Shown here piece after piece: positions 29,331 to 45,170 of a stretch of 64,000 bases of DNA (position 1 is its first letter; every line of letters begins with the position of its first letter). A program made the translations under genes and the position numbers. The notes beneath the pieces were generated by a model. The model worked only from the letters and a program-made list of their open reading frames with translations, made no database searches and was not told the DNA's origin. The DNA comes from an uncultured Bacilli bacterium (GTDB lineage: Bacteria; Bacillota_I; Bacilli_A; RF39; UBA660), in assembly GCA_944371315.1 (NCBI GenBank), contig CALVXN010000001.1:2838-66837 (forward strand), in the 5' to 3' direction.

Positions 29331-30047
29331 TTAATTCATTAAGCTTTCTAAAAAAGCAGAAACATTATCTATTTCATATACTGCAAATTGAGATACACCT
29401 CGATAATTTTTAACAATTAATAATTGATTTACATTAAAATCTTTAAAAGTCAAGGTATAAGTTTCATCTTCTATTGCACAAATTACTTCAATACTAGTTT
29501 GACTTTCATAATTATCATCAATAACAGGATTATTAATTCTTGTAGATTCATATACTTTTAATATTAAATCATTCATTTTATTAGATTCAATATCACCTTT
29601 TACATATTTACTTATTGTATTATATTCATACACCCACATATCGCTTAATATGTAATCATCACTACAATAATTATCATAAGCATATTTTATATTTATGGTT
29701 CTATAATAATCATTATCTAAAATATTATAATTTAAAATTGTTATATCATTACTTTCATCATAATAATATTTTCCATAACAAAATTCTAAATCATTTAAAT
29801 AATCTTCTTTATATTTTTCTAAATATTTAGCATTCAAAGGAGATATAAAATTAGCATTTAAATCTGAGCTTAATTTAGTAAAATACATAAATCTACTAAT
29901 TGGAATGCCTTCCCCTTTCATATCTACTTCGCTATAAGCTTCATAAATAAAAGTTTTATTTATTAAAATCACAAATGCCACTGCCATAAATACAAAAATA
30001 AAGGCAATTTTAATTAAATTAAATATCAATTTCATTTTATTCCTCAA
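29331..30047 (-). CDS. Membrane-anchored hypothetical protein, 238 aa
   Basis: N-terminal TM helix (IAFIFVFMAVAFVILI); Tyr/Asn/Asp-rich ectodomain; 11-nt overlap with the tex stop. Confidence 0.45.
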   Translation of the reverse strand: MRNKMKLIFNLIKIAFIFVFMAVAFVILINKTFIYEAYSEVDMKGEGIPISRFMYFTKLSSDLNANFISPLNAKYLEKYKEDYLNDLEFCYGKYYYDESNDITILNYNILDNDYYRTINIKYAYDNYCSDDYILSDMWVYEYNTISKYVKGDIESNKMNDLILKVYESTRINNPVIDDNYESQTSIEVICAIEDETYTLTFKDFNVNQLLIVKNYRGVSQFAVYEIDNVSAFLESLMN

Positions 30048-32178
30048 TTAAAGATAAATTTACTCTACCTTTTTCTTTTTCGATTCCACAAATATTAACT
30101 TTTATAATATCCCCAACTTTTAATATTTCACTTGGATGTTTTACAAAATTTTTGCTCATTTTAGAAATATGTATTAAAGCATCATCATGTAATCCAATAT
30201 CAACAAAAGCCCCAAAAGCAGTAACATTTCTAACTGTTCCTTCTAAAGACATACCTAATTCTAAATCATCAATAGTTAAAATGTCACTTCTTAACTCCAT
30301 TTGCTTAATTTCATCACGTGGATCAATTACACCATTAACCAAATTGTTTTTAAACATTTCCCATTTTTCACTAGATAAATTATAATTTTCTAAAATACTT
30401 TTACTATTTAAATTATCAAGCATATTTTTCATATTATCTGTTCCAACTAAATTAACATCTATATTATTATCACTTAGTATTTTATTAACAATATTATAAT
30501 CTTCGGGATGAATATTAGTTTTATCTAAAGGATTATCACCATTAAATATTCTAAGAAACCCAGCAGATTGTTCAAATGCCTTATCATTTCCTTCAACACT
30601 TTTTAATTCTTCCCTAGATTTAATAATTCCTTTTTTCTTACGATAATCAAGAATCTTTTTAATAATACTTTTGTTTAACCCAGAAATATAACTTAAAATA
30701 CTTTCACTAGCATTATTTAAATTGACACCGACTTTATTTACTACTTTACTAACAACAAAACCTAATTCTTCATCAAGTTCTTTTTGTTTTAAATCATGTT
30801 GATATAAACCTACACCAATACTTTTAGGATCTATTTTAACCAACTCTGATAATGCATCTTGTAATCTTCTTCCTATACTTACCGCACTTCTTTGTTCAAC
30901 AGAATAATCAGGAAATTCTTTTTTTGCCAAAGGTGAAGCAGAATACACACTAGCTCCAGCTTCACTAACAATTATATATTTAACATCTAAATTATATTTT
31001 TTAATCAAATTAGCAACAAAAGCTTCACTTTCTCGAGATGCAGTTCCATTACCAATAGCAATAATTTTTACATTATGTTTTTGAATTAAAGCAAGCATAA
31101 TTTTTTCAGCCATATCTACTTCTTTTTTAGGTTCATGAGGATAAATTACTCCAATTTCTAACACATCCCCACTACTTGATAAAACCGCAAGCTTACATCC
31201 AGTTCTAAACGCTGGATCAAATCCCATTACCACTTGACCTTTAATCGGAGGAGTTAATAATAAATTTTCTAAATTATTTCCAAACTCTTTTATACCAAAT
31301 TCACTAGCATTATCAAATAATTCTGCTTTAATATCACGTTCTAAACTAGGTTCTAAAAGTCTTTTCCATGCATCATTAATAAATTCTTGCATATCAGCTA
31401 TTAATGGACTCTTTTTATTCCCTATTACTTCATTATTTAGATATTCTATCACTTTTTTACTATCAACACTTAAACTATATGTAATAACTTTTTCTTTTTC
31501 TGCCCTTGACAATGCTAATACTTGATGAGGTTTAATATGAGTTATTTTTTGTTCAAAATCATAATATATTTCATATATTTTATTTTCATCAACAGCATTC
31601 TTTTTTAATTTTCCTTTAACAATACCATTATACCAATAATAATTTCTAATATATTTTCTATATTTTGGTCTATCACTTATCCAATCAGCAATAATATAAC
31701 CAGCATTAGTAATAGCATCATCTATAGTTTTTACTTGTTCATTTAAAAAGTCTTTTGCTATTTCATCACGACTTTTATTAGGTAAAGTCATAATAATTTT
31801 AGCTAGTGGTTCAAGACCTAATTTAATTGCTTCTGTTCCTTTAGTTTTTCTCTTTTCCTTATATGGAGTATAAATATCTTCAACTTCACTTAACTTTTCT
31901 GCATCATCTATAGCTTTAATTATTTCAGGAGTAAGCATTCCTTTTTCATCAATTAATCTTTTTACATCATCTTTACGAGTTTTAAGATTAACAGCATAAT
32001 TATATTCTGTTTCAATTAATCTTAATTCTTCTTCGTTTAAGTTACCAGTAAGTTCTTTTCTATATCTAGCAATAAAAGGAATAGTTGCTCCTTCATTTAA
32101 TAAATTAATTACATTTTTAATTTGATATTCTTTTAAATTTATTTTATTACTAACTTTATTAATTACTTCTTCGTTCAT
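30037..32178 (-). CDS. tex: Tex transcription accessory protein (YqgF/HhH/S1 domains)
   Basis: 713 aa; N-terminal LKEYQIKNVINLLNEGATIPFIARYRKE, C-terminal S1 domain GTVRNVTAFGAFVDIG. Confidence 0.8.
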   Translation of the reverse strand: MNEEVINKVSNKINLKEYQIKNVINLLNEGATIPFIARYRKELTGNLNEEELRLIETEYNYAVNLKTRKDDVKRLIDEKGMLTPEIIKAIDDAEKLSEVEDIYTPYKEKRKTKGTEAIKLGLEPLAKIIMTLPNKSRDEIAKDFLNEQVKTIDDAITNAGYIIADWISDRPKYRKYIRNYYWYNGIVKGKLKKNAVDENKIYEIYYDFEQKITHIKPHQVLALSRAEKEKVITYSLSVDSKKVIEYLNNEVIGNKKSPLIADMQEFINDAWKRLLEPSLERDIKAELFDNASEFGIKEFGNNLENLLLTPPIKGQVVMGFDPAFRTGCKLAVLSSSGDVLEIGVIYPHEPKKEVDMAEKIMLALIQKHNVKIIAIGNGTASRESEAFVANLIKKYNLDVKYIIVSEAGASVYSASPLAKKEFPDYSVEQRSAVSIGRRLQDALSELVKIDPKSIGVGLYQHDLKQKELDEELGFVVSKVVNKVGVNLNNASESILSYISGLNKSIIKKILDYRKKKGIIKSREELKSVEGNDKAFEQSAGFLRIFNGDNPLDKTNIHPEDYNIVNKILSDNNIDVNLVGTDNMKNMLDNLNSKSILENYNLSSEKWEMFKNNLVNGVIDPRDEIKQMELRSDILTIDDLELGMSLEGTVRNVTAFGAFVDIGLHDDALIHISKMSKNFVKHPSEILKVGDIIKVNICGIEKEKGRVNLSLIEE

Positions 32179-32247: not shown

Positions 32248-33246
32248 TTACTTTCTAGTTTTTAAATCATCCAATAAATTATTAAAAAAATTATAATTTA
32301 TACTAAAAACATTTATATAATATCTTTTTATATTTGGTGGTATTTCACAATTTATTTGTTCTTCAATTAATTTAAAAATTTTATTAATATTTTCTTCTCC
32401 TATAACCCATAAATAATTAGGCAAAATATCACTAAATTCACTACTACTTACACTCAAAAATTCTTGAATCATTTTATCATTTTCTGATATGCTATTACCC
32501 TCCAAAGATAAACCATAATATACAAATTTTGGATCATCTTCTAAACTTCTTGAGTTATCAAAAATTGGTTGTAAATCAACATCTCCATTTTCATATATTA
32601 CTACACCCCAATTTTCTTCATGGCGATCTTCCTGACCTGTAACTAAGTCAAATATAAATAATTTCACAATTTTCATCATTAACTTTGCTACTATTTCTTG
32701 CATATTAGGATAATCTTTAAAATAAACTTCTAAACAATGCCAAATACCTCTTAAATTATTATATTTATATGCATCAACCATTTTATCAACAGAATTGATT
32801 ATCTCTTCTCCACTAATATATTTTGCATTCTTTACTTTATAATCTTTTGATAAATTACCAGTAAAACCACCAATCATAGCTAAATCATAAAATACAGAAT
32901 CAAGCCCCATATCTTTTGCAATATAATAACAAATTAATTCATTTAAAGGATTAGATAACGAATCAAATTTAAAATAATAAGTTAATCCATTATATTCAAA
33001 ACTAAATACAAATTGGTCAATAGAATTTTCAAAAATATCACTTTGTCCGGAATAAAAATTTACCTTTTTAACGCTTGAATCATTTTCTTTTAAATAAGCT
33101 ATAACTTCATCATGTTTACTGCAAAACTTCACAACTTTAACACTTGAATTATTTTCTTTTAAATAAGCTAAAAATTCATCAATATCATCGCTTTTCTTTA
33201 CATTTAAAATACTTGTTAAATCTAAATATCCATTTATTCTTTCCAT
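32248..33246 (-). CDS. HipA-like / PI3-PI4-kinase-fold putative protein kinase, 332 aa, with an internal 22-aa tandem repeat near the N-terminus
   Basis: Catalytic-loop-like GQEDRHEENWG (DxHxxN) followed by PIFDNSRS; N-terminal repeat DEFLAYLKENNSSVKVVKFCSK / DEVIAYLKENDSSVKKVNFYS encoded by a 66-bp tandem DNA duplication (about 33070-33200). Confidence 0.5.
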   Translation of the reverse strand: MERINGYLDLTSILNVKKSDDIDEFLAYLKENNSSVKVVKFCSKHDEVIAYLKENDSSVKKVNFYSGQSDIFENSIDQFVFSFEYNGLTYYFKFDSLSNPLNELICYYIAKDMGLDSVFYDLAMIGGFTGNLSKDYKVKNAKYISGEEIINSVDKMVDAYKYNNLRGIWHCLEVYFKDYPNMQEIVAKLMMKIVKLFIFDLVTGQEDRHEENWGVVIYENGDVDLQPIFDNSRSLEDDPKFVYYGLSLEGNSISENDKMIQEFLSVSSSEFSDILPNYLWVIGEENINKIFKLIEEQINCEIPPNIKRYYINVFSINYNFFNNLLDDLKTRK

Positions 33247-33266
33247 AATTATACCTCTAACATATA

Positions 33267-34448
33267 CTATTTATAATATTTTATCTTAAATTTAGTTCCT
33301 TTATCAAGTTTAGAACTAACAATAATTTTTCCATTATCTTTTAAAATAATTTCTTTTGCTAAAGCTAAACCTATACCAAAGCTATTATTAGAACTATTTT
33401 TTCCTTTATAAAATCTTTCAAATATATGATTTACTTCACTAGAAGCTATACCCAATCCTTCATCAATAATTTCAATCTGTGTATAAAAGTTATTTTCCTT
33501 AAATTCAATATAAATACTTTTATTATCAGGAATATAATCAATACAATTTTTAATTATATTGGATAATGCTTCAAACTCCCATTGATAATCTCCAATAAAA
33601 GAAACATTATTTTTTCCATTTACATGAATATTAATATTTTTTAAATCAATTAAAGGATCAACATATTTTAATACCTCAAAAATAATATTTTTAACATTAA
33701 TATTTTCTTTTTTAAAAACAACTACATTTGCATCAAACTTAGATAGTTTTAATAATTGAATTATTAAATAATTTATATTTTTAACTTGAAATTTTATATC
33801 TTCTAAAAATTCTTTTTGAATTTCAGGAGAAACATTATTATCACATAAATTATCTACCAGCAAAGATATAGAAGTTAAAGGAGTTTTTAATTGATGAGAA
33901 ATATTAGTTAAAGAATCCTTAACACTTAATTTTTCTTTTAATTCATTTTCTGCTTTTTCTTTTAACATAACCGTTGTAGTATATATTTCATTTTTCAAAA
34001 TACTATACATACTTTCTTTATTATTTGTTAATTTTAAGTCATAATTTCCTCTATTGATATCTTTAATATATTCAACAATTTCATCTAGTTCTTTTTTCTC
34101 TTTTTTTCTATTAAATAGTATTACTATAAAAAATATTAAAGAAATTATACCAATAAATATTGAATTTAAAAATAAAGAATGTATAAAACTATTTTTAAAT
34201 GAATACAATACACTAATATCACTTTTACTAATTCCATAATTATTTAATAATGTATTATCGTATTCACTTAAATTAATTAATTTTATAATTTTACTTTCAT
34301 CATAATCCGGATAATCTTTTTTTATTTCATAAATAACAGTATTAACAAAACCATTAACCAAATTACTATATTTAGCATAATCAAAATAAGTAATAATACC
34401 AACTGAAAATAGTAATACAACATAATTAATAATAATTATTTTTTTCAT
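33267..34448 (-). CDS. Sensor histidine kinase with 2 TM helices and an extracytoplasmic loop of about 70 aa
   Basis: HisKA H-box SLTNISHQLKTPLTSI; HATPase N/G boxes (NIIKNCIDY, GLGIASS, GIGLALAKEI). Confidence 0.75.
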   Translation of the reverse strand: MKKIIIINYVVLLFSVGIITYFDYAKYSNLVNGFVNTVIYEIKKDYPDYDESKIIKLINLSEYDNTLLNNYGISKSDISVLYSFKNSFIHSLFLNSIFIGIISLIFFIVILFNRKKEKKELDEIVEYIKDINRGNYDLKLTNNKESMYSILKNEIYTTTVMLKEKAENELKEKLSVKDSLTNISHQLKTPLTSISLLVDNLCDNNVSPEIQKEFLEDIKFQVKNINYLIIQLLKLSKFDANVVVFKKENINVKNIIFEVLKYVDPLIDLKNINIHVNGKNNVSFIGDYQWEFEALSNIIKNCIDYIPDNKSIYIEFKENNFYTQIEIIDEGLGIASSEVNHIFERFYKGKNSSNNSFGIGLALAKEIILKDNGKIIVSSKLDKGTKFKIKYYK

Positions 34449-35092
34449 TTATCCACCCTATAACCGATACCTTTTATTGTTTTAATAATTGAATCATTAT
34501 TTAATTTTTCTCTAATTCTTTTTATATAAACACTTAAAGTATTATCATTAACTATTTTACCAGTAATATCCCAAATTCTATCAATTAATATATCTCTTGT
34601 AATAACTCTATTAAAATTTTGAAATAACAAAATTAATATTTTATATTCTAAACTTGTAAAATAAACTTCATTATTATTAACAAAAACTTGACTAGAATCC
34701 AAATTTATAATTATATTATCTTTTTGAATAATATTTTTTTCTTCTTTTTTTCTTATAATTTTATTTATTCTTGATACTAACTCTTTAGCTCTAAAAGGCT
34801 TGATAATATATTCATCAACACCAGAATCAATAGCATCAACAACAATATCTTCATCATCTTTTGCAGTTAATATAATTGTGTGTTTATTTTTTAAATGTGT
34901 TTTATAAAATACCAACCCATCACCATCAGGTAGCATCAAATCCAAAATAACTACATCAATATCACTAGATAAATAATTTAAAGAATCACTCAAATTATTT
35001 GATACTACCACATCAAAATTATTTTGTTTAAGTAAATAAACTATAGCTTTAACAATCATATAATTATCTTCTATTAATAATATTTTATTCAT
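34445..35092 (-). CDS. OmpR-family response regulator; start taken at the ATG at 35092 with RBS AAGGGG
   Basis: Receiver domain (KILLIEDN...DVVILDLMLPDGDG) plus winged-helix C-terminus; track ORF extends to 35152 through a non-RBS region. Confidence 0.75.
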   Translation of the reverse strand: MNKILLIEDNYMIVKAIVYLLKQNNFDVVVSNNLSDSLNYLSSDIDVVILDLMLPDGDGLVFYKTHLKNKHTIILTAKDDEDIVVDAIDSGVDEYIIKPFRAKELVSRINKIIRKKEEKNIIQKDNIIINLDSSQVFVNNNEVYFTSLEYKILILLFQNFNRVITRDILIDRIWDITGKIVNDNTLSVYIKRIREKLNNDSIIKTIKGIGYRVDK

Positions 35093-35138
35093 AACACATC
35101 CCCTTAAATTATAACAAAAAATCATCCAAAGATGATTT

Positions 35139-37739
35139 TTAAATGTTATCATTTCTTATTGTTTCAATAATATTTTGTTTATTAATTTTTTTAACAGACA
35201 CATGCATTATTATAAATATAAGTAAGAATACAACAACAATAGAAATTATTATTGCTTGAATTGGTAACATAAAACCTAAGTCATTTCCCACTTGAAAACC
35301 TTTATAAATTGCATATGAGCCCAAAATACCTAAAGGAATACCAATAAGTAAAGATTTTGTTCCATAAAATATACTTTCTAAACGAATTAAACGATTAAAC
35401 TCGCGCTTTGTCATACCAATAGATTTTAACATTGCAAATTCTTTACTTCTTAAATTCATATTAGTAGTTATTGTATTAAATATATTAGTTATACCTATTA
35501 AACTAATAACTATTATAAAACCATATAAGAAGATTGCTACAAGTAGTAATATAGATTTTTGAGCATTTACCTCTTTTTCAACATTAAATAAATAATAATC
35601 ATAATCGATATTTTTTAAGTAGTCATTAATATCACTTTCTAACTTAGTAGCATTACTACTATTTATATAAAGTCCATCATAATCATAATCTAATTTATCC
35701 ATTAAAGAATCAGGTATAATTAAATATCCGCTAGAATTATAATTACTTTCTAATCCCATTGGCCTTATATCAGTTCTATTTGCAATTTTAATTTGATAAT
35801 TATTACCATTTTCAAATTTACCAGTTACAACATCCCCCAAAGATAAATTATAAATGTTAAAGTGTTCATACCGATCATTTCTATAATAAATAAAATCATC
35901 AATTAATATACCACAATCTTTATAATCATCAATATTACCATCGATAGCTTCAACATACCTTTTATATTCGGCATCTCCTAAAGCAACAATTTGCAAGTAT
36001 GATTTTGCATCGTCTGTGTAATTTTCTTTTTCTTCACCATAATAATTAAAAAATCCTTTATCAGACATATATTTTTTCATATCAACTTCTAATAAAATAC
36101 TACGATGTAGCGAATACTTGTCGATTGTGCCAAGTGATAAAATATTGTCATATGCTGCTTTAATTTCATCATTAGAAATTTTATCTGCCTCAGTTGCTTT
36201 AGGATAAATAGATAATTGTATGTTATATTTAATATCTTTATAATATTGGCCTGCTAGACCAAAACCATAATTTAAAAGTGATGATAAAGATATAAAAACA
36301 GAAACGCTAACTACTAATGATATTACAGTAGTTCTATATTTTTTTCGACTCCGTTTTAAATTTTTATAAGCAATTTCACCACCAACACCAAAAAGCTTAC
36401 TAATTATTTTAGGAGTTTTTAATTTTTTAGCATTAATTTTTATTTCATTATTATTTCTAATTGCCTCAATTGGAGAAATTTTACTAGATTTACGAGCAGC
36501 ACTAATAACAGATAAGTAAATAGTTATTACTCCTAATAATATACTTAAACAAATTGGTAAAATAGGAATACTAAAAATAAATTTTGTATCATTAATGAAT
36601 TCTGGTATTAAAAGATTAACAATATTACATAAAATAAAATCCGCAAATATTCCAGATAATATACCAATAGGAATACCTATTAATCCAAGAATAGATCCTT
36701 CATACAAAACATTTTTCTTAATTTGTTTACTTGTAGCCCCAACACTTGCAAGCATACCATATTGTTTAGTTTTTTCAGTTATAGATATATTAAAACTATT
36801 TCGAATTACAAAAACACTAGTTAAAATAATTATACTTACCACAACACTAGCAACAGTATATATCATATCTTGATTAGAATCACTTAAACCCACTCCTTGC
36901 CAACGGAGTAAGTCACTATTTAAATTATAACTATAATCCTTTAATTCACTACTATTTATTAAATTATTTAAAAAATCTTTATAATATCCAGGATCTTTAA
37001 ATAATAATGAAACATCATATGTATCACTAGTTAATGTATCAGCATATGTAATTACAGTATAACCAGGTGCATTGTATGGTTCAAAGTTATAATCTAACCT
37101 TTCCATGATACCTACTACAGTATATTCTTTAGAATACTTATACTCTAATTTTTCATTACATTCATCAACTTCATTATATCCTTCTTCGTAAACAAAAGTT
37201 GGATTTTTTTGATTTAATGTAGAACCATCACTACATATACGATTACTAATATCTAAAGTTATTCTATCACCAATATTTATTTCAACTTCTGCATTATCTA
37301 TAACACTTTTAGAAATAATTATTTCAGAAGAATTTTGAGGTAACCTACCATCTTCTAAATTTATCGAAGTATTTTTAAAAGCTTCTTTTGTATAACCTAA
37401 AACATATAAATATGGTTTATAAGGATTTTGACTTCCATTTAAAGGAGCATACCCCAAATTTTCTATTAAATACATAAGCTCAACATGACGATTATTTTCA
37501 AAATATTTTAAATCTTTTTTTAAAACTGATTCTATTGTTATATGTCTATTTCCAGAATTTTCTTTAGCATTTTCAATTAATGTGGCTTGCAAACTACTAA
37601 CCATACCAGCAACAGCACAAATTAATGCAGTAGATAATATAATACCAATTATTGTTACAATTGTTCTTTTTTTATTTAATTTTAAATTTTTTAAAGTAAG
37701 TTTATTTAATATATTCATATTATTACTTCCGAACATCAC
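35139..37739 (-). CDS. ABC transporter permease of the FtsX family, 866 aa, duplicated FtsX modules with large extracytoplasmic domains (BceB/MacB-like)
   Basis: Multiple FtsX-type 3-4 TM clusters separated by large soluble loops; overlaps the upstream ATPase gene. Confidence 0.65.
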   Translation of the reverse strand: MMFGSNNMNILNKLTLKNLKLNKKRTIVTIIGIILSTALICAVAGMVSSLQATLIENAKENSGNRHITIESVLKKDLKYFENNRHVELMYLIENLGYAPLNGSQNPYKPYLYVLGYTKEAFKNTSINLEDGRLPQNSSEIIISKSVIDNAEVEINIGDRITLDISNRICSDGSTLNQKNPTFVYEEGYNEVDECNEKLEYKYSKEYTVVGIMERLDYNFEPYNAPGYTVITYADTLTSDTYDVSLLFKDPGYYKDFLNNLINSSELKDYSYNLNSDLLRWQGVGLSDSNQDMIYTVASVVVSIIILTSVFVIRNSFNISITEKTKQYGMLASVGATSKQIKKNVLYEGSILGLIGIPIGILSGIFADFILCNIVNLLIPEFINDTKFIFSIPILPICLSILLGVITIYLSVISAARKSSKISPIEAIRNNNEIKINAKKLKTPKIISKLFGVGGEIAYKNLKRSRKKYRTTVISLVVSVSVFISLSSLLNYGFGLAGQYYKDIKYNIQLSIYPKATEADKISNDEIKAAYDNILSLGTIDKYSLHRSILLEVDMKKYMSDKGFFNYYGEEKENYTDDAKSYLQIVALGDAEYKRYVEAIDGNIDDYKDCGILIDDFIYYRNDRYEHFNIYNLSLGDVVTGKFENGNNYQIKIANRTDIRPMGLESNYNSSGYLIIPDSLMDKLDYDYDGLYINSSNATKLESDINDYLKNIDYDYYLFNVEKEVNAQKSILLLVAIFLYGFIIVISLIGITNIFNTITTNMNLRSKEFAMLKSIGMTKREFNRLIRLESIFYGTKSLLIGIPLGILGSYAIYKGFQVGNDLGFMLPIQAIIISIVVVFLLIFIIMHVSVKKINKQNIIETIRNDNI

Positions 37740-38400
37740 TTATAATTTTACCATCTTCTATGGTAATTATTCTATTTGCTTCATTTGCAATTTCTAAATC
37801 ATGAGTAATAACAATAATTGTTTGATTATATTTTTGATTAGACTTTTTAAGCAAAGATATTATTTCATCACTAGCTTTTGAATCTAAATTGCCAGTTGGT
37901 TCATCCGCTAAAACTAAAGCAGGATTATTTATTATAGCTCTTCCAATAGACACTCTTTGTTGTTGTCCCCCAGATAGTTCATTAGGTAAATGATTTTTTC
38001 TATTTTCTAAACTTAAAGTTTTTAACAAATCATTTAAATGCTTTTCATCAACACTTTTATTATCTAATTTACATGGTAAAGTAATATTTTCTACAACATT
38101 TAAAATAGGTATTAAATTATAAAACTGATAAATTAAACCTACTTGTCTTCTTCTAAATATTGCAAGAGCATCATTATTCATAGCATAAATATCAACACCA
38201 TCTATAAATACTTTTCCACTAGTTGGTCGATCAACACCCCCTATTAAATGTAATAAAGTAGATTTACCAGAACCAGATGCTCCAACTATTGCAACAAATT
38301 CACCCTTAGAAACGCTAAAAGAAATATTATCAACAGCATTTATTTTAGTTTCCCCTTTTCCATAAACCTTGGATAATTTTTCTACTTTTAAAATTTCCAT
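37723..38400 (-). CDS. ABC transporter ATP-binding protein (BceA/MacB-type ATPase)
   Basis: Walker A GASGSGKST, Q-loop, signature LSGGQQQRV, Walker B LVLADEPTGNLD. Confidence 0.85.
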   Translation of the reverse strand: MEILKVEKLSKVYGKGETKINAVDNISFSVSKGEFVAIVGASGSGKSTLLHLIGGVDRPTSGKVFIDGVDIYAMNNDALAIFRRRQVGLIYQFYNLIPILNVVENITLPCKLDNKSVDEKHLNDLLKTLSLENRKNHLPNELSGGQQQRVSIGRAIINNPALVLADEPTGNLDSKASDEIISLLKKSNQKYNQTIIVITHDLEIANEANRIITIEDGKIISDVRK

Positions 38401-39188: not shown

Positions 39189-39266
39189 TTAATCACCTAA
39201 TTAATTATACCAAATAATACCAGCTTATAAAACAAATAATTGATAATACTATTAAGGGAGGTAAAT

Positions 39267-39482
39267 ATGAAAAATATACCAGAAATGATATCTACAAAAG
39301 ATATTGCATACATTAAAGATATGTTTAATTGGAATTACATATTATTCAAAAAATATGATAATTACCTAGAAAATATAGAAGACGAAGAAATTTGTAAATT
39401 AACAAATGAATTGTCAAATTTGCATTTTAACAATTGCAATGAATTACTAAACTTATTAGAAGGAAGTGATAACTGTGAATGA
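39267..39482 (+). CDS. Small hypothetical protein, about 71 aa, possibly Coat-F-like; start at the ATG with RBS AAGGGAGG
   Basis: Strong RBS TTAAGGGAGGTAAAT-ATG; track ORF begins earlier at 39240. Confidence 0.45.
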   Translation: MKNIPEMISTKDIAYIKDMFNWNYILFKKYDNYLENIEDEEICKLTNELSNLHFNNCNELLNLLEGSDNCE

Positions 39483-39753
39483 TAAAGAATATATAATGGA
39501 TATATTAGAATCTGAAAAAAATTTATCAGTTAATATGACATACGCATTAAATGAAGCAAGTTGCGACAAATTATATAAATCTTATTTAAAGATGTTTGAA
39601 AATATAAATAAAAAAGTTAAAGAAATATTTGATTTATCATATAAATTAGATTTTTACAAATTAGAAAAAGAAGAAGGGAAAAAAATAAAGTCTACAATTA
39701 AGACTTTAACTCAAGACTTGAATTCTTCTTCATCAGATGAATCAACAAAATAA
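39475..39753 (+). CDS. Coat F domain-like small protein; GTG start at 39475 assumed (track ORF from GTG at 39466)
   Basis: MDILESEKNLSVNMTYALNEASCDKL...Y pattern matches the Coat_F family signature; overlaps the upstream small ORF. Confidence 0.45.
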   Translation: MNDKEYIMDILESEKNLSVNMTYALNEASCDKLYKSYLKMFENINKKVKEIFDLSYKLDFYKLEKEEGKKIKSTIKTLTQDLNSSSSDESTK

Positions 39754-40325: not shown

Positions 40326-41846
40326 TTATTCAATTAAGCCACTTATATCACTTATTTTTTCTTCTAAATTATTAATTTTATCTTCAAGGTCGTTAATTAT
40401 TACATCTTTTTCATAAATTTCCTCTTCAAGTTCATAAACTCTATTTTCATAATATTCAAATTTGTTATATTCTTCTTCTTTATCTTTATAATATTTTTCT
40501 AAATTGTTTTTAATAATATTTATATTTTTTTCTGATGTTTCAATTTTCACATCCATATTCATTAATAAATTATAATTGTATAATTTTTTCTTTTTCAAAT
40601 CATTTTTTATTAAATCAATATAATTTAAAGTTTTATCAAAAGAAACATATTTATAAATACCTAAAAAATTATTATTTAAGTCTATATTAACATTTAAATA
40701 GTCATCGTAATAATTAACAACAATATTTACATCATCTTTTAGATCATTATTTATTACATAATTAGTATTAAAATAATCAAAAAAAACTAAATCATCTCGC
40801 ATTTTAAATGTATATTCATAAGTATCTGCTGAAACACTAGTAGGTAATTCATCTTTATAATCAACTTTAGATATTTCATAAGTTGATATACCTATTCCTA
40901 CACCTAAGGTAATTAAAGAACCTAAAAAAATTAAAAACATTCTTTTGTTAATTAAATTGGCATTTAAAAGAATTTTTATAAGTAATTCTATAATTACCAG
41001 CAAAAATAATACCGCACCTAGTAAAGCTATAAAAATGCCAATAAAATGAATTCCAATAAATTGCATTATTAAAGTTAATGTAGTAATTATAACTAATATT
41101 ATAAATGAAATAATAATAGGTAATAAAATCAAAATTATACACATTTTTAAAAATATATTAAATATTTTAGCTAAAATATCAAATAAGAAAAAGTTATGTT
41201 TTTCTTTTTTATTATTTAAAATGAGATCATTATTATCTTCAGTAAATTTTACATTATTATCATTATCATCTTTAATTTTAATACCTTCACTTCTATTAAA
41301 TTTATCTAAAAATCTTATTTTATAAACATAAACAAAAATTGCAATAAATAAAATTAAATAAATTGTATTAGAAATAAAATACCAAATACTAGATAAAATA
41401 TCATACGTTTTTGAAGAAAAATTAATAAATATTTTAATAATAGAATTATTTATAAAATTAAATGGTATTTTAAAAATGAGTAAAATTATAAATAAAATAA
41501 ATAATTCAATAATACATTTTCCTTTTTCTTTAGATGTCATACTTTTAAACATTTCAAAACTTTTATTTATTATATCTAAAATAGAATAAAATAAATTACT
41601 AAAATTATTTTTAGATCTTTCTTTAATATTTTTATCAGTTACATTGTCATTAGTTAAATCATCTAAAGTAACGTTAAATATTTTACACAAGCTTAATAAT
41701 TTATCCATTTCAGGATAAGTAGTTCCAGATTCCCATTTAGAAACGGATTGCCGAGAAACCTCTAACAAATCTGCCAATTGTTCTTGAGAATACCCTCTGT
41801 CTTTTCTTAATTTTTGTAGTTTTTCACAAAACTTCATTTTTATCAC
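40326..41846 (-). CDS. Membrane-bound XRE-family regulator: N-terminal HTH, about 4 TM helices and an extracytoplasmic coiled-coil C-terminus
   Basis: HTH_3 at the N-terminus (LRKDRGYSQEQLADLLEVSRQSVSKWE); several TM helices; C-terminal heptad-like EEEIYEKDVIINDLEDKINNLEEKI. Confidence 0.6.
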   Translation of the reverse strand: MIKMKFCEKLQKLRKDRGYSQEQLADLLEVSRQSVSKWESGTTYPEMDKLLSLCKIFNVTLDDLTNDNVTDKNIKERSKNNFSNLFYSILDIINKSFEMFKSMTSKEKGKCIIELFILFIILLIFKIPFNFINNSIIKIFINFSSKTYDILSSIWYFISNTIYLILFIAIFVYVYKIRFLDKFNRSEGIKIKDDNDNNVKFTEDNNDLILNNKKEKHNFFLFDILAKIFNIFLKMCIILILLPIIISFIILVIITTLTLIMQFIGIHFIGIFIALLGAVLFLLVIIELLIKILLNANLINKRMFLIFLGSLITLGVGIGISTYEISKVDYKDELPTSVSADTYEYTFKMRDDLVFFDYFNTNYVINNDLKDDVNIVVNYYDDYLNVNIDLNNNFLGIYKYVSFDKTLNYIDLIKNDLKKKKLYNYNLLMNMDVKIETSEKNINIIKNNLEKYYKDKEEEYNKFEYYENRVYELEEEIYEKDVIINDLEDKINNLEEKISDISGLIE

Positions 41847-42143: not shown

Positions 42144-42500
42144 CTACAGATTCAACTTATTTAATATATCTTTTTTATTTAAACCAATTTTTTGTAATTC
42201 TTTTATTTTATTATTTATTACATTTATAGTATCATCTATTTTTTTATTTTTTACTTTAGTAACATCATCTACAATAAATGTTCCTTTAGTTGATTTAGAT
42301 ATAATAACATTTAATTGTTCTAAAATATCATAAGCTTTTTTTACAGTATTAGGATTTACACTTAAATTACAAGCTAAATCTCTAATTGAAGGAATTTGAC
42401 TACCTGGAGACAAAATATCTAAAGCAACAAGTTTTTCTATTTCACTAACTATTTGCTCATAAATAGGTATTCTACTTTGGTAATCAATATTAATATTCAT
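42144..42500 (-). CDS. GntR-family (YtrA-like, short) transcriptional regulator
   Basis: Winged HTH (IPSIRDLACNLSVNPNTVKKAYDILE), 118 aa; last gene of the ABC operon. Confidence 0.65.
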   Translation of the reverse strand: MNINIDYQSRIPIYEQIVSEIEKLVALDILSPGSQIPSIRDLACNLSVNPNTVKKAYDILEQLNVIISKSTKGTFIVDDVTKVKNKKIDDTINVINNKIKELQKIGLNKKDILNKLNL

Positions 42501-44296
42501 TCCTTAAACACTCCATAATCTCCATACTCCTTCAATAGTATTTTTGAATCTATAATATAGTTGCATGAACCACTAGAAAATATTATAGCATAATCTTGAA
42601 TTTTATCATACTTATGGTTATCTAAAAAAGTTAAAAAATTACTTTTATTGCCATTAATATAGTCTAAAAACTCAATTTTAATATTACTACAAAATATATC
42701 ATTATCATTATTAAAATTAGTAACAAAATCTTCATTAACATATTTTTTAACATAATTTAAAAGATCTTTATTTTTACCAACATTTATTGTCATTTTTTTT
42801 AATGAATGATTTTCATATTTATAAACATTTAAGTAAAACGATGTATAACTGTCTTCTTTATAAGTATCAATATGACTAATAACATTATTTAAAAAATTAT
42901 CATTTAATGGAATATTTATATAATTATTAGAATCAGCAGTAATAAATATAATATTTTTATTAGTAACTTTTTCATTTAATTTATTATTATTAATATATTT
43001 TTTTAATTCCTGAAAAGTATAATTATTTATATAATAATTTTTATAATAATTATTATCAATATAAACAACAACATTATTTTGACTATCAGAAACATTATTA
43101 TCTTTTATTATTTTTTTAATTATATCTTGGTTATTTAATAAAACTTTAGAACTAACATTTAAAATGTTATCATAATATTCAATTATTATTTCTGAAGGAA
43201 TATCAATTATTTTATTATTATTTTTATAATAATAATTAATTGCAAAATAACTACAAAAAATAACAACAGAAACTACCATAAATTCAAACAAAGTTTTTAT
43301 TGGATTAATAAATTCTTTTTTCATTATTAAATCAAATACAAAATAATAACCTAAGCAAATAATAATACTAATCATTAAAAAACTAATACTATCCATAAAC
43401 ATCATAAAACATATAAATGAAATAGGCAAATAAGTTATAAATTTTAACAATTTATAAGCATAAACATTTTGAATTGAAGATTCAGAATATTCCATTTTAT
43501 GATTCTTAAAAGCATAATAGCTTAAAATTAAATAAATAACATTTAAACAAATAGTTTTTAATAAACTTTGATTTTTATACCCATAAACATAATAATTTAT
43601 TAATGAATTTAAATTGTTTGAATAATAATGTTTAATTTCATAATAATATTCATTATCATTATTACCTAAATTTACTTCATTAGGCATACACGATGAATCA
43701 TTACATCTTATTAAAACTTTTTCATTTCTATATTTAAAATTGTAATTAATTAAGGTAATACAAGGATAAATTAACAGTATTATAAGATATACAAGAATAA
43801 ATGAACTCCAATTATGTGATAAACATAAAGCCAAAGAAGAAACTAGAAAAACAAAGAAATAAGTTATTAACCAATAAACAAAATAATCAAGTAGGACTTC
43901 AAAAGGAATAAATATTTTAGTAAACAAAGATAATAAATATAATCCCAAAGTATTTAACAGAATAATAAAAATAATAATAATAAATCCTCCTAAAACATTA
44001 GTAAAAAATATTTTTTTTCTACTAATAGGTTTAGAAATTACAAAATCAATAACATTTTTTTTAAGTAAAAAACCAAACAAGATATAAGATAAAATTAAAG
44101 GAAAAATAAAAGCTATAATGGATGTAATCTTACTAATCTCAATAAAATCCAAAACATAATTATTTTTAAATAAATTAAGGTATATCATCCAAATATTAAT
44201 AAAAGGAATGATACAACATAAAAATATTAATAATACTTTCGATTTTTTAAAGTTTTGATACAAAAAATTAAAATTAAATAACATTTTTAAATTCAT
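42497..44296 (-). CDS. ABC-2 type polytopic permease, 599 aa
   Basis: At least 8 TM helices in the N-terminal half plus a large Asn/Tyr-rich C-terminal extracytoplasmic region; overlaps the ATPase gene. Confidence 0.5.
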   Translation of the reverse strand: MNLKMLFNFNFLYQNFKKSKVLLIFLCCIIPFINIWMIYLNLFKNNYVLDFIEISKITSIIAFIFPLILSYILFGFLLKKNVIDFVISKPISRKKIFFTNVLGGFIIIIFIILLNTLGLYLLSLFTKIFIPFEVLLDYFVYWLITYFFVFLVSSLALCLSHNWSSFILVYLIILLIYPCITLINYNFKYRNEKVLIRCNDSSCMPNEVNLGNNDNEYYYEIKHYYSNNLNSLINYYVYGYKNQSLLKTICLNVIYLILSYYAFKNHKMEYSESSIQNVYAYKLLKFITYLPISFICFMMFMDSISFLMISIIICLGYYFVFDLIMKKEFINPIKTLFEFMVVSVVIFCSYFAINYYYKNNNKIIDIPSEIIIEYYDNILNVSSKVLLNNQDIIKKIIKDNNVSDSQNNVVVYIDNNYYKNYYINNYTFQELKKYINNNKLNEKVTNKNIIFITADSNNYINIPLNDNFLNNVISHIDTYKEDSYTSFYLNVYKYENHSLKKMTINVGKNKDLLNYVKKYVNEDFVTNFNNDNDIFCSNIKIEFLDYINGNKSNFLTFLDNHKYDKIQDYAIIFSSGSCNYIIDSKILLKEYGDYGVFKE

Positions 44297-45170
44297 AACC
44301 CAATGCCTCCATTTGATAAATAAATATCTCTTCTAAAGTTAAAGGTAAAAATTCAATAAATATTGAATCTAAACTATTTAAATATTTTTTTGCTTTTTTA
44401 CTATCTTTAACAATTAAGGTAATTACTTTACCTACTTTTTTATAAGATAAAATATTTAATTTTGAAAATGCATCTTTATCAAATTCATTTTTTAAAGATA
44501 TTTGAACTTTACATATATCACTTTTCAAGCTGTTTATGTCACTTTCAAAAAAAATTTTAGAATCATGTATTAAACCTAAATTATCACAAATATCTTCAAG
44601 TTCTCTTAAATTATGAGAAGTCATAATAATCGTAGTATCCTGCTTTGCCATTTGATTAATTATTAGTTTTTTAAAATAATTTCTGATAATTGGATCAATA
44701 CCATCAAACGTTTCGTCAAAAAACATGTATTTTACATTCGTAGCTAATGCACATATAATTGCACACTGACGTTTCATGCCTTTAGAAAAAGAACTAATAT
44801 TTTTATTTATATCTAATTTTAGATTATTAGCAAGTTCATAAACAAAAGACATATCAAAATTATTATACATGCTTTTATAAAAAGAAGCTAAATCCTTCAA
44901 AGTATATCCAGAATAAAAATATAAATCATCTGGAACAAATACCATTTCTTTTTTTATTTTTTCATTATCATAGACATTTACATTATCAACTAATACTTTT
45001 CCATTATCAGGTTTATAAATGCTAGTAATTATTCTAAGCAAAGTTGATTTACCTGACCCATTTGTTCCTACCAAACCATAAATAATATTATCAGGTATAT
45101 TACAACTTAAATTCATCAAAACATCTTTTTTTCCATTAAAACTTTTACTAATGTTTTTTATTTCAATCAT
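44274..45170 (-). CDS. ABC transporter ATP-binding protein
   Basis: Walker A GTNGSGKST, signature FSKGMKRQ, Walker B MFFDETFDGIDP. Confidence 0.8.
   Translation of the reverse strand: MIEIKNISKSFNGKKDVLMNLSCNIPDNIIYGLVGTNGSGKSTLLRIITSIYKPDNGKVLVDNVNVYDNEKIKKEMVFVPDDLYFYSGYTLKDLASFYKSMYNNFDMSFVYELANNLKLDINKNISSFSKGMKRQCAIICALATNVKYMFFDETFDGIDPIIRNYFKKLIINQMAKQDTTIIMTSHNLRELEDICDNLGLIHDSKIFFESDINSLKSDICKVQISLKNEFDKDAFSKLNILSYKKVGKVITLIVKDSKKAKKYLNSLDSIFIEFLPLTLEEIFIYQMEALGYEFKNVI

What the first reader, a model, noticed from the sequence alone, without database searches (positions are those of the whole stretch)
32248..33246. Short HipA-like / PI3-4-kinase-fold protein with an internal tandem duplication, embedded in a Bce-type module
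The 332-aa ORF immediately downstream of the histidine kinase carries a catalytic-loop-like GQEDRHEENWG (DxHxxN) and a following FDNSRS segment, the pattern of HipA_C / PI3-PI4 kinase catalytic cores. It is the size of the short HipT-type kinases that lack the HipA N-terminal domain. No HipB/HipS-like partner precedes it (20-bp gap to the kinase gene stop), so the mechanism that would restrain it, if any, is not evident. Near the N-terminus, a 66-bp stretch of DNA is tandemly duplicated, giving the repeat DEFLAYLKENNSSVKVVKFCSK / DEVIAYLKENDSSVKKVNFYS. This could be a recent slippage event or a duplicated regulatory segment.
Basis: partly seen in the sequence, partly recalled or inferred. Interest (0 to 1): 0.55.

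Follow-up and report, generated by a model that had tools for sequence, protein, structure and literature searches.

The report
Solo CtkA/HipA-like kinase with duplicated linker
The gene encodes a short protein kinase of the HipA/CtkA group that has no antitoxin partner and sits inside ordinary housekeeping operons of very AT-rich gut Bacilli. The 23-codon repeat is a strain-level length variant in a fast-evolving linker. It is a modestly interesting unnamed subfamily rather than a new kind of system.

Summary
The 332-aa ORF lies on the minus strand (33246→32248). It carries GQEDRHEENWG (204-214) and FDNSRS (229-234). The in-frame tandem repeat is 69 nt, not 66, and the copies are 78% identical, far beyond chance.

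The kinase reading is supported:
- Pfam HipA_C matches just below threshold (26 vs 30.5 bits).
- A family profile hits H. pylori CtkA at E=1e-15, then HipT and HipA.
- An AlphaFold model (pLDDT 91.6) matches CtkA best, then HipT, HipA and PI3K.
- K93, E103, D207, N212 and D230 are 94-100% conserved across the representatives aligned (136, 89).
- The canonical Hip Gly-rich loop (GxQxK) is absent.

The "embedded in a Bce-type module" reading is not supported. The ABC/two-component cassette is specific to this lineage, is not canonical Bce, and is decaying in sister strains. Relatives down to 27% identity have tag–kinase–tex instead. More distant members sit in nusB–xseA, pcrA–ligA and yebC–rny contexts, often overlapping their neighbours. 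No HipB, HipS or HIRAN partner was found.

The gene is under purifying selection (ω 0.15-0.29). The duplication is polymorphic among near-identical alleles, lies in a hypervariable linker, and its second copy is modelled as disordered.

Best reading: an active, partner-less cellular Ser/Thr kinase of an unnamed CtkA-like subfamily. Its substrate is unknown.

The parts
32248..33246 (-). Gene for a 332-aa solo short kinase of the CtkA/HipA-like lineage (stop codon included).
   Evidence: ORF. HipA_C E=8.8e-6. PADLOC PDC-M03A E=4.9e-21. Family profile to CtkA E=9.7e-16. Models and fold matches.
32599..32637 (-). Catalytic loop GQEDRHEENWGVV (residues 204-216). D207 is the proposed catalytic base and N212 a proposed Mg2+ ligand.
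   Evidence: D207 is invariant and N212 is 97% conserved in the family. H209 is variable. This stretch aligns to GNFDRHNGNWGF of CtkA.
32545..32562 (-). FDNSRS (residues 229-234). D230 is the proposed Mg2+-binding Asp, equivalent to the DFG or HipA D332 position.
   Evidence: D230 is invariant and N231 is 89% conserved. It aligns to the FD of CtkA and the YD of HipT(Lp).
32938..33015 (-). N-lobe beta-hairpin FVFSFEYNGLTYYFKF (residues 78-95) followed by the start of helix C (to residue 103). It contains the proposed ATP-binding K93 and its partner E103.
   Evidence: K93 is 96% and E103 94% conserved. Strands 78-85 and 88-95 and helix 101-112 are modelled at pLDDT of about 96-98.
33123..33191 (-). 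Repeat copy 1 (about residues 19-41 at DNA level; peptide unit D23-H45). This is the ancestral helix-strand unit of the family-specific N-terminal element.
   Evidence: It is present in all orthologues and modelled confidently at pLDDT 94-96.
33054..33122 (-). Repeat copy 2 (peptide unit D46-Q68). This 23-codon in-frame insertion is specific to one lineage.
   Evidence: It is absent from the 308-311-aa alleles, which are 93-97% identical elsewhere. pLDDT is 46-73. The junction shares a TGATGA microhomology, read directly from the sequences.
33267..38400 (-). Upstream lineage-specific cassette: ABC ATPase (37723-38400), duplicated MacB/FtsX permease (35139-37739), OmpR-type response regulator (34445-35152, probably starting at 35092) and histidine kinase (33267-34448). 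It is adjacent to the kinase but not a conserved partner.
   Evidence: Pfam and NCBIfam results. Transmembrane layout. Present only in close relatives, and partly split there. Replaced by tag in other relatives.
30037..32178 (-). tex (713 aa, S1-domain transcription accessory protein). This is the conserved downstream neighbour of the kinase in this clade.
   Evidence: Pfam. Downstream of the kinase in L001-L006, L008-L013 and L025.

Best explanation
The ORF encodes an active cytoplasmic Ser/Thr protein kinase. It belongs to an unnamed, partner-less subfamily of the short HipA-homologous kinases, and its closest characterised relative is H. pylori CtkA.

Inferred mechanism:
- K93 on the N-lobe hairpin, paired with E103 on helix C, positions ATP.
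- D207 acts as the catalytic base.
- N212 and D230 hold Mg2+.
- A family-specific N-terminal element of about 45 residues (RxxG[FY][IL][DN]L, then a helix and a strand) packs on the N-lobe. It stands in for the missing HipA N-subdomain and the missing GxQxK loop.

The gene is a vertically inherited chromosomal gene, co-oriented with flanking housekeeping genes and, in several relatives, overlapping them. It is therefore most likely a resident regulatory or growth-control kinase rather than a toxin-antitoxin toxin. No linked antitoxin restrains it. Control would have to come from expression level, autophosphorylation or an unlinked factor. The substrate is unknown.

The 69-nt repeat arose by slippage or unequal exchange at a TGATGA microhomology. 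It occurred inside a hypervariable linker between the N-terminal element and the kinase core. It adds a floppy helix-loop and is probably tolerated rather than functional.
For: Shown:
- Homology and fold. The second model has pLDDT 91.6 and pTM 0.89.
- Catalytic residues: K93, E103, D207, N212 and D230 are 94-100% conserved across the representatives aligned, 136 and 89. The profile search found 1354 hits at E<=1e-3 and 136 at E<=1e-30.
- Selection: purifying, with omega 0.15-0.29 over the whole gene and about 0.10-0.12 outside the linker.
- Conserved synteny: tag-kinase-tex-(unknown)-AI-2E transporter-sufS-sufU in relatives down to 27% identity.
- Other members lie inside nusB-xseA, pcrA-(NTP transferase)-ligA, yebC-rny and NUDIX-cca-dnaD-nth operons. 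They overlap or abut a neighbouring gene: 8 nt, 13 nt, 11 nt, and a 1-nt gap.
- No HipB, HipS or HIRAN neighbour, no small ORF and no Rfam hit.
- No paralogue in the window.
- Duplication: long (332/334 aa) and short (308-311 aa) alleles occur in one 90% cluster. Copy 1 is confidently modelled and copy 2 is not. Variability is concentrated at residues 31-45 and 61-75.

Inferred: kinase activity, a protein substrate, co-transcription with neighbours, and neutrality of the insertion.
Against: - Pfam HipA_C is below its gathering score (26 vs 30.5 bits), and there is no NCBIfam hit.
- The canonical Hip Gly-rich loop GxQxK is absent. Only 1 of 137 family sequences has the pattern, and at a non-equivalent position. 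ATP handling may therefore differ.
- H209 of the DxHxxN motif is not conserved in the family.
- Fold-match TM-scores are moderate (0.53-0.62).
- The gene's dN is 6-9 times that of tex, and it has a hypervariable cassette. That pattern is more typical of conflict genes than of housekeeping regulators.
- The strongest library match is to PDC-M03A, a candidate phage-defence kinase.
- E. coli HipH/YjjJ shows that a solo Hip kinase can still be toxic (PMC8262856).
- No expression or biochemical data exist.
Confidence: 0.6

Rival explanations
1. It is a solo toxin kinase, comparable to HipH/YjjJ or a stripped-down HipT. It phosphorylates a translation factor such as an aminoacyl-tRNA synthetase to induce dormancy. 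It is restrained in cis, or by autophosphorylation, or by an unlinked antitoxin.
For: - It is homologous to HipT and HipA, whose targets are TrpS and GltX (PMC8262856).
- The catalytic residues are intact.
- Solo Hip kinases that inhibit growth are known: YjjJ/HipH (PMC8262856; PMC9948734 listed).
- The published Hip phylogeny excluded kinases without an adjacent antitoxin, so solo forms are under-described.
Against: - There is no Gly-rich loop with the autophosphorylated Ser that regulates HipA and HipT.
- No antitoxin candidate lies on either side in ten different genomic contexts.
- The position is syntenic and vertically inherited within housekeeping operons, with gene overlaps. It is not an autonomous autoregulated operon.
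- The N-terminal element is about 45 aa, too small for a HipS-like domain of about 100 aa.
Confidence: 0.2
2. It is an anti-phage abortive-infection kinase related to PDC-M03 (hipIN) that has lost or never had the HIRAN/HipS partner. The hypervariable, indel-prone linker would be a surface under arms-race selection.
For: - It matches nine PDC-M03A models in PADLOC, the best at E=4.9e-21.
- PDC-M03 is a HipA-like kinase plus a HIRAN protein (PMC13245101).
- It matches phrog_8728 at E=7.8e-8.
- It evolves faster than its neighbours, and the hot spot shows dN 0.18-0.65 and dS 0.6-1.3.
- Long and short alleles are polymorphic.
Against: - No PDC-M03B/HIRAN or other defence gene is adjacent.
- The genomic position is conserved between core genes across 27-98% identity. 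It is not in a variable island.
- In the hot spot both dN and dS are raised, and dN/dS stays below 1. This fits relaxed constraint or imported sequence as well as it fits selection, and only 18 codons are involved.
Confidence: 0.1
3. It is a host-directed effector kinase like CtkA, released by these gut-associated bacteria to act on host cells.
For: CtkA is the closest solved relative by both sequence profile and fold. The source organisms are uncultured, host-associated, low-GC Bacilli/Tenericutes MAGs.
Against: - There is no signal peptide or transmembrane segment.
- There is no long basic C-terminal tail like the CtkA translocation signal. The protein ends ...DDLKTRK, whereas the CtkA tail is described in PMC5536186.
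- No type IV secretion or ICE genes are nearby. The gene is chromosomal and among core genes, whereas ctkA is ICE cargo.
Confidence: 0.04
4. It is a small-molecule or lipid kinase, or a pseudokinase, rather than a protein kinase.
For: Family members score almost equally, and below threshold, against the PI3_PI4_kinase, Fam20C and HipA_C profiles. The GxxDRHxxN loop resembles the PI3K/PI4K catalytic loop (own knowledge). The Gly-rich loop is absent.
Against: The best sequence and fold matches are protein kinases (CtkA, HipT, HipA). PI3K matches rank lower, with a TM-score normalised to the target of about 0.18. All the catalytic residues needed for phosphotransfer are conserved, which argues against a pseudokinase.
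Confidence: 0.06

Closest known systems
CtkA (JHP0940), Helicobacter pylori cell-translocating Ser/Thr kinase (PDB 3AKJ/3AKK/3AKL)
   Same: - It is the best match by family profile (E=9.7e-16, covering profile positions 39-292 of 295) and by fold (Foldseek E=4.5e-10, TM 0.53/0.62).
- It has a similar size: short, with no HipA N-subdomain-1.
- The catalytic loop is very similar: GNFDRHNGNWGF versus GQEDRHEENWGV.
- It also lacks an adjacent antitoxin.
   Different: - Sequence identity is only 17-18%.
- CtkA is strain-variable cargo of the tfs3 conjugative element and depends on a basic C-terminal tail and a type IV secretion system for its host effect (PMC5536186).
- This gene is chromosomal, syntenic, lacks that tail, and has its own conserved N-terminal element.
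HipT of hipBST (E. coli O127, Legionella pneumophila) and the short Hip kinases HipG/I/J/M (Gerdes et al. 2021, PMC8262856)
   Same: - It is a short core-only Hip-type kinase.
- Profile hits: HipT(Lp) at E=6e-7 and PADLOC PDC-M03A (a HipI-type kinase) at E=4.9e-21.
- The catalytic DxHxxN motif and the Mg-binding Asp are present.
   Different: - Those kinases are defined together with an adjacent HipS, HipN (HipS-HIRAN), HipP or HipR partner.
- They carry a Gly-rich loop, usually with Ser/Thr, near the N terminus.
- Here no partner was found in any of about ten contexts, and the GxQxK motif is absent.
HipA (E. coli, Shewanella) of hipBA
   Same: Same kinase superfamily and fold. Pfam HipA_C is the top Pfam hit.
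   Different: - The Pfam score is below the gathering threshold.
- It lacks the ~100-aa N-subdomain-1, the P-loop with the autophosphorylated Ser150, and HipB.
- It is not organised as an autoregulated toxin-antitoxin operon.
HipH/YjjJ of E. coli (solo Hip kinase)
   Same: It is encoded without an adjacent antitoxin (PMC8262856).
   Different: HipH has an N-terminal HTH domain and conserved serines near a Gly-rich loop. This family has neither.

Membership tests
HipA-homologous kinases (four core Hip motifs, Gerdes 2021) | Catalytic motif DxHxxN | tested here: met
   The motif is D207-R-H209-E-E-N212. D207 is invariant and N212 is 97% conserved in the family, but H209 is replaced by N, E or Y in some members.
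HipA-homologous kinases (four core Hip motifs, Gerdes 2021) | Mg2+-binding Asp motif | tested here: met
   D230 (in FDN) is invariant. It aligns with the corresponding Asp of CtkA and HipT(Lp).
HipA-homologous kinases (four core Hip motifs, Gerdes 2021) | Gly-rich (P-) loop GxQxK, usually with an autophosphorylated Ser/Thr | tested here: not met
   The pattern G.Q.K occurs in 1 of 137 family sequences, at a non-equivalent position. The Pfam match starts only at profile position 23. A conserved N-terminal RxxG[FY][IL][DN]L (G6 in 126 of 137) may or may not be a counterpart.
HipA-homologous kinases (four core Hip motifs, Gerdes 2021) | Activation loop | not testable with these tools
Pfam HipA_C (PF07804) | Score at or above the gathering threshold of 30.5 bits | tested here: not met
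   The window protein scores 26.0 bits, E=8.8e-6. One distant family member, P0120, passes at 32.2 bits. Others score 18-28 bits and also give near-threshold PI3_PI4_kinase hits.
Type II toxin-antitoxin hip module (hipBA / hipBST / hipIN / hipJS) | An adjacent antitoxin gene (HipB HTH, HipS, HipS-HIRAN and so on) in the same operon | tested here: not met
   In the window the neighbours are a histidine kinase and tex. Elsewhere they are tag, nusB, xseA, yebC, rny, cca, ligA, a methyltransferase and a radical-SAM protein. No HTH, HipS or HIRAN hits were found, and the downstream ~190-aa ORFs in two loci are unrelated to each other.
PADLOC PDC-M03 candidate defence system | Two genes: a HipA-like kinase (A) plus a HIRAN-domain protein (B) | tested here: not met
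   The A component matches at E=4.9e-21. No B or HIRAN component is found among the neighbours. The composition of the system is taken from PMC13245101.
Bce-type antimicrobial-peptide detoxification module (the neighbouring cassette) | A BceB-type 10-TM permease with one large loop between TM7 and TM8, plus an intramembrane-sensing BceS kinase with a minimal external loop (definition from my own knowledge) | tested here: not met
   The permease is 866 aa, with two MacB-like halves (TM1, ~250-aa loop, TM2-4, repeated) and a MacB_PCD hit. The histidine kinase has transmembrane segments at 4-22 and 92-110, so its external loop is about 70 aa. The hydropathy scan is crude, so this is indicative only.
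Protein-kinase-like fold, CtkA/HipA/PI3K branch | A bilobal kinase fold with the conserved Lys-Glu pair, a catalytic Asp and metal-binding Asn/Asp | tested here: met
   The model has pLDDT 91.6 and pTM 0.89. The top 50 PDB matches are all CtkA, HipT, HipA or PI3K at probability 1.00.

The most novel reading that the evidence does not exclude
A core-genome, partner-less Hip/CtkA-like kinase family is the resident Ser/Thr signalling or growth-arrest kinase of reduced-genome gut Bacilli and Mollicutes-like bacteria. Its hypervariable, indel-prone linker next to the ATP-binding hairpin would be a selected interaction surface, for example for phage- or stress-derived triggers. If so, the 23-residue duplication would be an adaptive allele that changes how the kinase is switched on. 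This would be an antitoxin-free way of controlling a Hip-type kinase.
Probability: 0.12. Interest if true: 0.7.

Novelty: new variant of a known kind. Interest (0 to 1): 0.4.

Why it matters
Hip-type kinases are studied almost entirely as toxin-antitoxin toxins or defence components. The reference phylogeny even required an adjacent antitoxin for a kinase to be included.

This family has 136 clusters (50% identity) at E<=1e-30. It shows that short CtkA-like Hip kinases also exist as syntenic, purifying-selected, partner-less genes. They are embedded in housekeeping operons of nucleic-acid metabolism in very small, AT-rich genomes.

This gives CtkA, an orphan "virulence" kinase, a set of chromosomal bacterial relatives. 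It also raises a testable question: how is a Hip-type kinase kept harmless, or used productively, without HipB/HipS and without the autophosphorylated P-loop?

The natural pair of long and short alleles provides a ready-made experiment on the N-terminal linker.

Tried and rejected
- TRF did not report the repeat. The repeat finder and a period scan did.
- A single-sequence search against PDB sequences gave only noise. NCBIfam gave no hit.
It was replaced by a model from 89 sequences.
- The search for related loci on metagenome contigs failed twice because the alignments were too diverse.
- A second word-indexed protein search with the family alignment added few members and no source names.
- Truncated homologues P0175 and P0176 looked like possible pseudogenes. 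P0176 turned out to be a contig-end artefact; P0175 was not looked up.
- I tested whether tag had merely moved elsewhere in the window. It is not present there.
- I tested whether the ~190-aa ORFs downstream of two distant members, or the C-terminal extension of the 500-aa forms, represent a hidden common partner. They are unrelated to each other, and one tested extension has no PDB match.
- A literature search for HipA-like kinases in Mollicutes found nothing relevant.
- "YSGQS" in repeat copy 2 superficially resembles the HipT SGxQ loop. I rejected it as coincidence because it lies in the lineage-specific insertion.
Full report
**1. What is in the sequence**

The ORF is real and lies on the minus strand, from ATG at 33246 to the stop at 32248. 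It encodes 332 aa and has a GAGG ribosome-binding site upstream. GQEDRHEENWG occupies residues 204-214 and FDNSRS occupies 229-234.

The gene starts 20 bp after the stop of a histidine-kinase gene. It ends 69 bp before tex.

The internal repeat exists, but its unit is 69 nt (23 codons), not 66. The copies are at 33054-33122 and 33123-33191, and 54 of 69 bases are identical. TRF misses it. A period-69 scan of the whole window peaks exactly there. In 200 composition-preserving block shuffles the best score was 43/69 (mean 38.6, sd 1.3). The repeat is therefore not chance.

The window has 23.6% G+C and reads cleanly in genetic code 11.

**2. What the protein is**

Library searches with the single protein:
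- Pfam gives HipA_C as the only meaningful hit, at E=8.8e-6. Its 26 bits are below the 30.5-bit gathering score, and the match begins at profile position 23.
- NCBIfam gives nothing, and a single-sequence PDB search gives nothing.
- PADLOC matches nine PDC-M03A models, the best at E=4.9e-21. According to PMC13245101, PDC-M03 is a HipA-like kinase plus a HIRAN protein. I equate this with the hipIN type of Gerdes et al. 2021 (PMC8262856).

Size of the family:
- A word-indexed search of 5.8 billion proteins found only 22 relatives.
- A full profile search of 1.84 billion cluster representatives found 1354 at E<=1e-3 and 136 at E<=1e-30. Most are 270-330 aa.
- Members score weakly, and about equally, against HipA_C, PI3_PI4_kinase and Fam20C.

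Closest characterised relatives:
- A profile of 89 members hits H. pylori CtkA at E=9.7e-16 over almost the whole kinase core. It then hits Legionella HipT at 6e-7 and Shewanella HipA at 9e-5.
- AlphaFold with that alignment gives pLDDT 91.6 and pTM 0.89.
- Foldseek against the PDB ranks CtkA first (E=4.5e-10, TM 0.53/0.62), followed by HipT(Lp), HipA, HipT(Ec) and PI3K. The earlier, weaker model gave the same order.

Conserved residues across the family:

| Residue | Conservation |
|---|---|
| K93 | 96% |
| E103 | 94% |
| D207 | invariant |
| N212 | 97% |
| D230 | invariant |
| N231 | 89% |

This is the full set expected for phosphotransfer.

There are two departures from canonical Hip kinases. 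First, H209 is not conserved. Second, the GxQxK Gly-rich loop is absent: only 1 of 137 sequences has the pattern, and it is out of register. Instead the family has its own N-terminal element, M-x-R-x-x-G-[FY]-[IL]-[DN]-L followed by a helix and a strand. G6 is present in 126 of 137 sequences, and the element is modelled at pLDDT 94-97.

**3. Genomic context**

The upstream cassette does consist of an ABC ATPase, an FtsX-type permease, an OmpR-type response regulator and a histidine kinase. Three observations argue against a functional link:
- The cassette is not canonical Bce. The permease is an 866-aa tandem MacB-like protein, and the histidine kinase has a ~70-aa external loop.
- It is present only in the closest relatives, which are 82-98% identical. 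In several of those the histidine-kinase gene, and once the permease gene, is split, while the kinase gene remains intact.
- Relatives at 44-49%, 40% and 27% identity have 3-methyladenine DNA glycosylase I (tag) immediately upstream, in four loci overlapping the kinase start by 8 nt. tex lies downstream, followed by the same unknown-AI-2E-sufS-sufU run as in the window. tag is not in the window.

More distant members sit in other contexts:
- between nusB and xseA;
- between pcrA/an NTP-transferase gene and ligA;
- between yebC and rny;
- between a NUDIX gene and cca-dnaD-nth;
- after ruvX-yceG-methyltransferase;
- after a radical-SAM gene.

All are co-oriented with their neighbours and often overlap them.

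No HTH, HipS, HIRAN or other recurring partner appears on either side. Two ~190-aa downstream ORFs are unrelated to each other. There is no small ORF of note, no Rfam family and no terminator-like site around the gene. Promoter-like hexamers are no more frequent than in shuffled sequence.

All loci are 23-30% G+C. The named ones are uncultured Bacilli, Tenericutes or Mycoplasma MAGs.

**4. Selection and the duplication**

Against two sister alleles, whole-gene omega is 0.15-0.20 (0.29 between the two sisters), and dN is 6-9 times that of tex. Outside an 18-codon hot spot, omega is about 0.10-0.12.

The hot spot covers codons 37-54 of the short allele. There dN is 0.18-0.65 and dS is 0.6-1.3, compared with dS of 0.10-0.15 elsewhere. 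Amino-acid variability among near-identical alleles is concentrated at residues 31-45 and 61-75. The duplication lies exactly in this region.

Within a single 90%-identity cluster there are long alleles (332/334 aa) and short alleles (308-311 aa) that are otherwise 93-98% identical. Copy 1 is the ancestral unit and copy 2 is the insertion.

The junctions share TGATGA, which fits slippage or unequal exchange. This is read directly from the sequences.

The central 35 nt of the two copies are nearly identical, and the flanks have diverged. This matches the general hypervariability of the region. A divergent long allele (P0204) shows that the insertion has persisted, always in frame.

In the good model, copy 1 is confident. 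Copy 2 forms a low-confidence helix followed by a disordered loop, leading into the K93 hairpin.

**5. Interpretation**

The best-supported reading (about 0.6) is an active, partner-less cellular Ser/Thr kinase of an unnamed CtkA-like branch of the Hip kinases. It appears to be inherited vertically and expressed with housekeeping operons. The duplication is most likely a tolerated length variant of a floppy linker.

The rival readings are:
- a solo toxin of the HipH type (about 0.2);
- a stand-alone abortive-infection kinase related to PDC-M03 (about 0.1);
- a non-protein kinase or pseudokinase (about 0.06);
- a CtkA-like host effector (about 0.04).

Kinase activity, substrate class and co-transcription are inferred, not shown.

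**6. Novelty**

The fold and superfamily are known, and solo Hip kinases are known (HipH, CtkA, HipL). Three things are new:
- a sizeable subfamily that lacks the Hip P-loop;
- a distinct N-terminal element;
- placement without any antitoxin inside core operons of reduced-genome Bacilli.

The published Hip phylogeny excluded kinases without an adjacent antitoxin by design, and no paper in the library describes this family. I rate it a new variant of a known kind, with an interest score of 0.4.

Noticed in passing
L008:6800-7980, L009:3781-4961, L010:1273-5723 (orthologous to window 33267-37739): In sister strains the histidine-kinase gene upstream of the kinase is split into 120/110-aa and 247-aa ORFs. 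In L010 the FtsX permease is also split (522 + 313 aa). The ABC/two-component cassette seems to be decaying there, while the HipA-like gene stays intact.
   Followed up: partly
window 33084-33137 (codons 37-54 of the short allele; residues ~31-45 and 61-75 of the window protein): This is a hypervariable cassette. Between alleles that are ~96-97% identical in nucleotide sequence elsewhere, this 18-codon stretch has 11-25 differences in 54 nt. Both dN and dS are raised 5-10 fold or more. That suggests imported or old polymorphism, or a mutational hot spot, rather than simple positive selection.
   Followed up: partly
window 34445-35152 (-): The listed 235-aa response-regulator ORF overlaps the permease gene. 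Orthologues are called at 215 aa, so the true start is probably M21 (MNKILLIEDN) at about 35092.
   Followed up: partly
window 35139-37739 (-) and 33267-34448 (-): The permease is an 866-aa tandem MacB-like protein, with two large extracytoplasmic domains each followed by FtsX transmembrane bundles. The histidine kinase has a ~70-aa external loop. The cassette is therefore a MacB/FtsX exporter with a two-component system rather than a textbook BceAB-RS module.
   Followed up: partly
P0048, P0053, P0078 (about 500 aa) and P0156 (660 aa); locus L014:2184-3695: Some family members carry one (two in P0156) copies of an unannotated ~180-aa C-terminal module. Whole-protein Pfam scans of P0048, P0053, P0078 and P0156 showed no domain in the extension, and the P0053 extension has no PDB sequence match. 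In L014 the gene lies between yebC and rny. The module could be a cis-regulatory or targeting domain.
   Followed up: partly
window 39240-39753 (+): Two small adjacent ORFs (80 and 95 aa) lie on the opposite strand to the flanking genes, upstream of the ABC cassette. The gene at the apparently corresponding position in L008 carries a Pfam Coat_F (spore coat protein F) hit. That is unexpected for a genome otherwise resembling wall-less or reduced Bacilli.
   Followed up: no
window 40326-41846 (-) and 42144-45170 (-): There is a 506-aa membrane protein with an N-terminal XRE-type HTH-like sequence and a coiled-coil tail. Next to it is a second ABC unit: a 118-aa GntR-like regulator, a 599-aa multi-pass membrane protein and a 298-aa ATPase. 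These assignments are judged from the sequences only.
   Followed up: no
L003:7460-8008/8001-8903, L018:2663-3577/3565-4407, L007:7806-8753/8743-9951: The kinase gene overlaps its housekeeping neighbours: tag by 8 nt, an NTP-transferase gene by 13 nt and xseA by 11 nt. This suggests translational coupling with unrelated DNA-repair genes in different lineages.
   Followed up: partly
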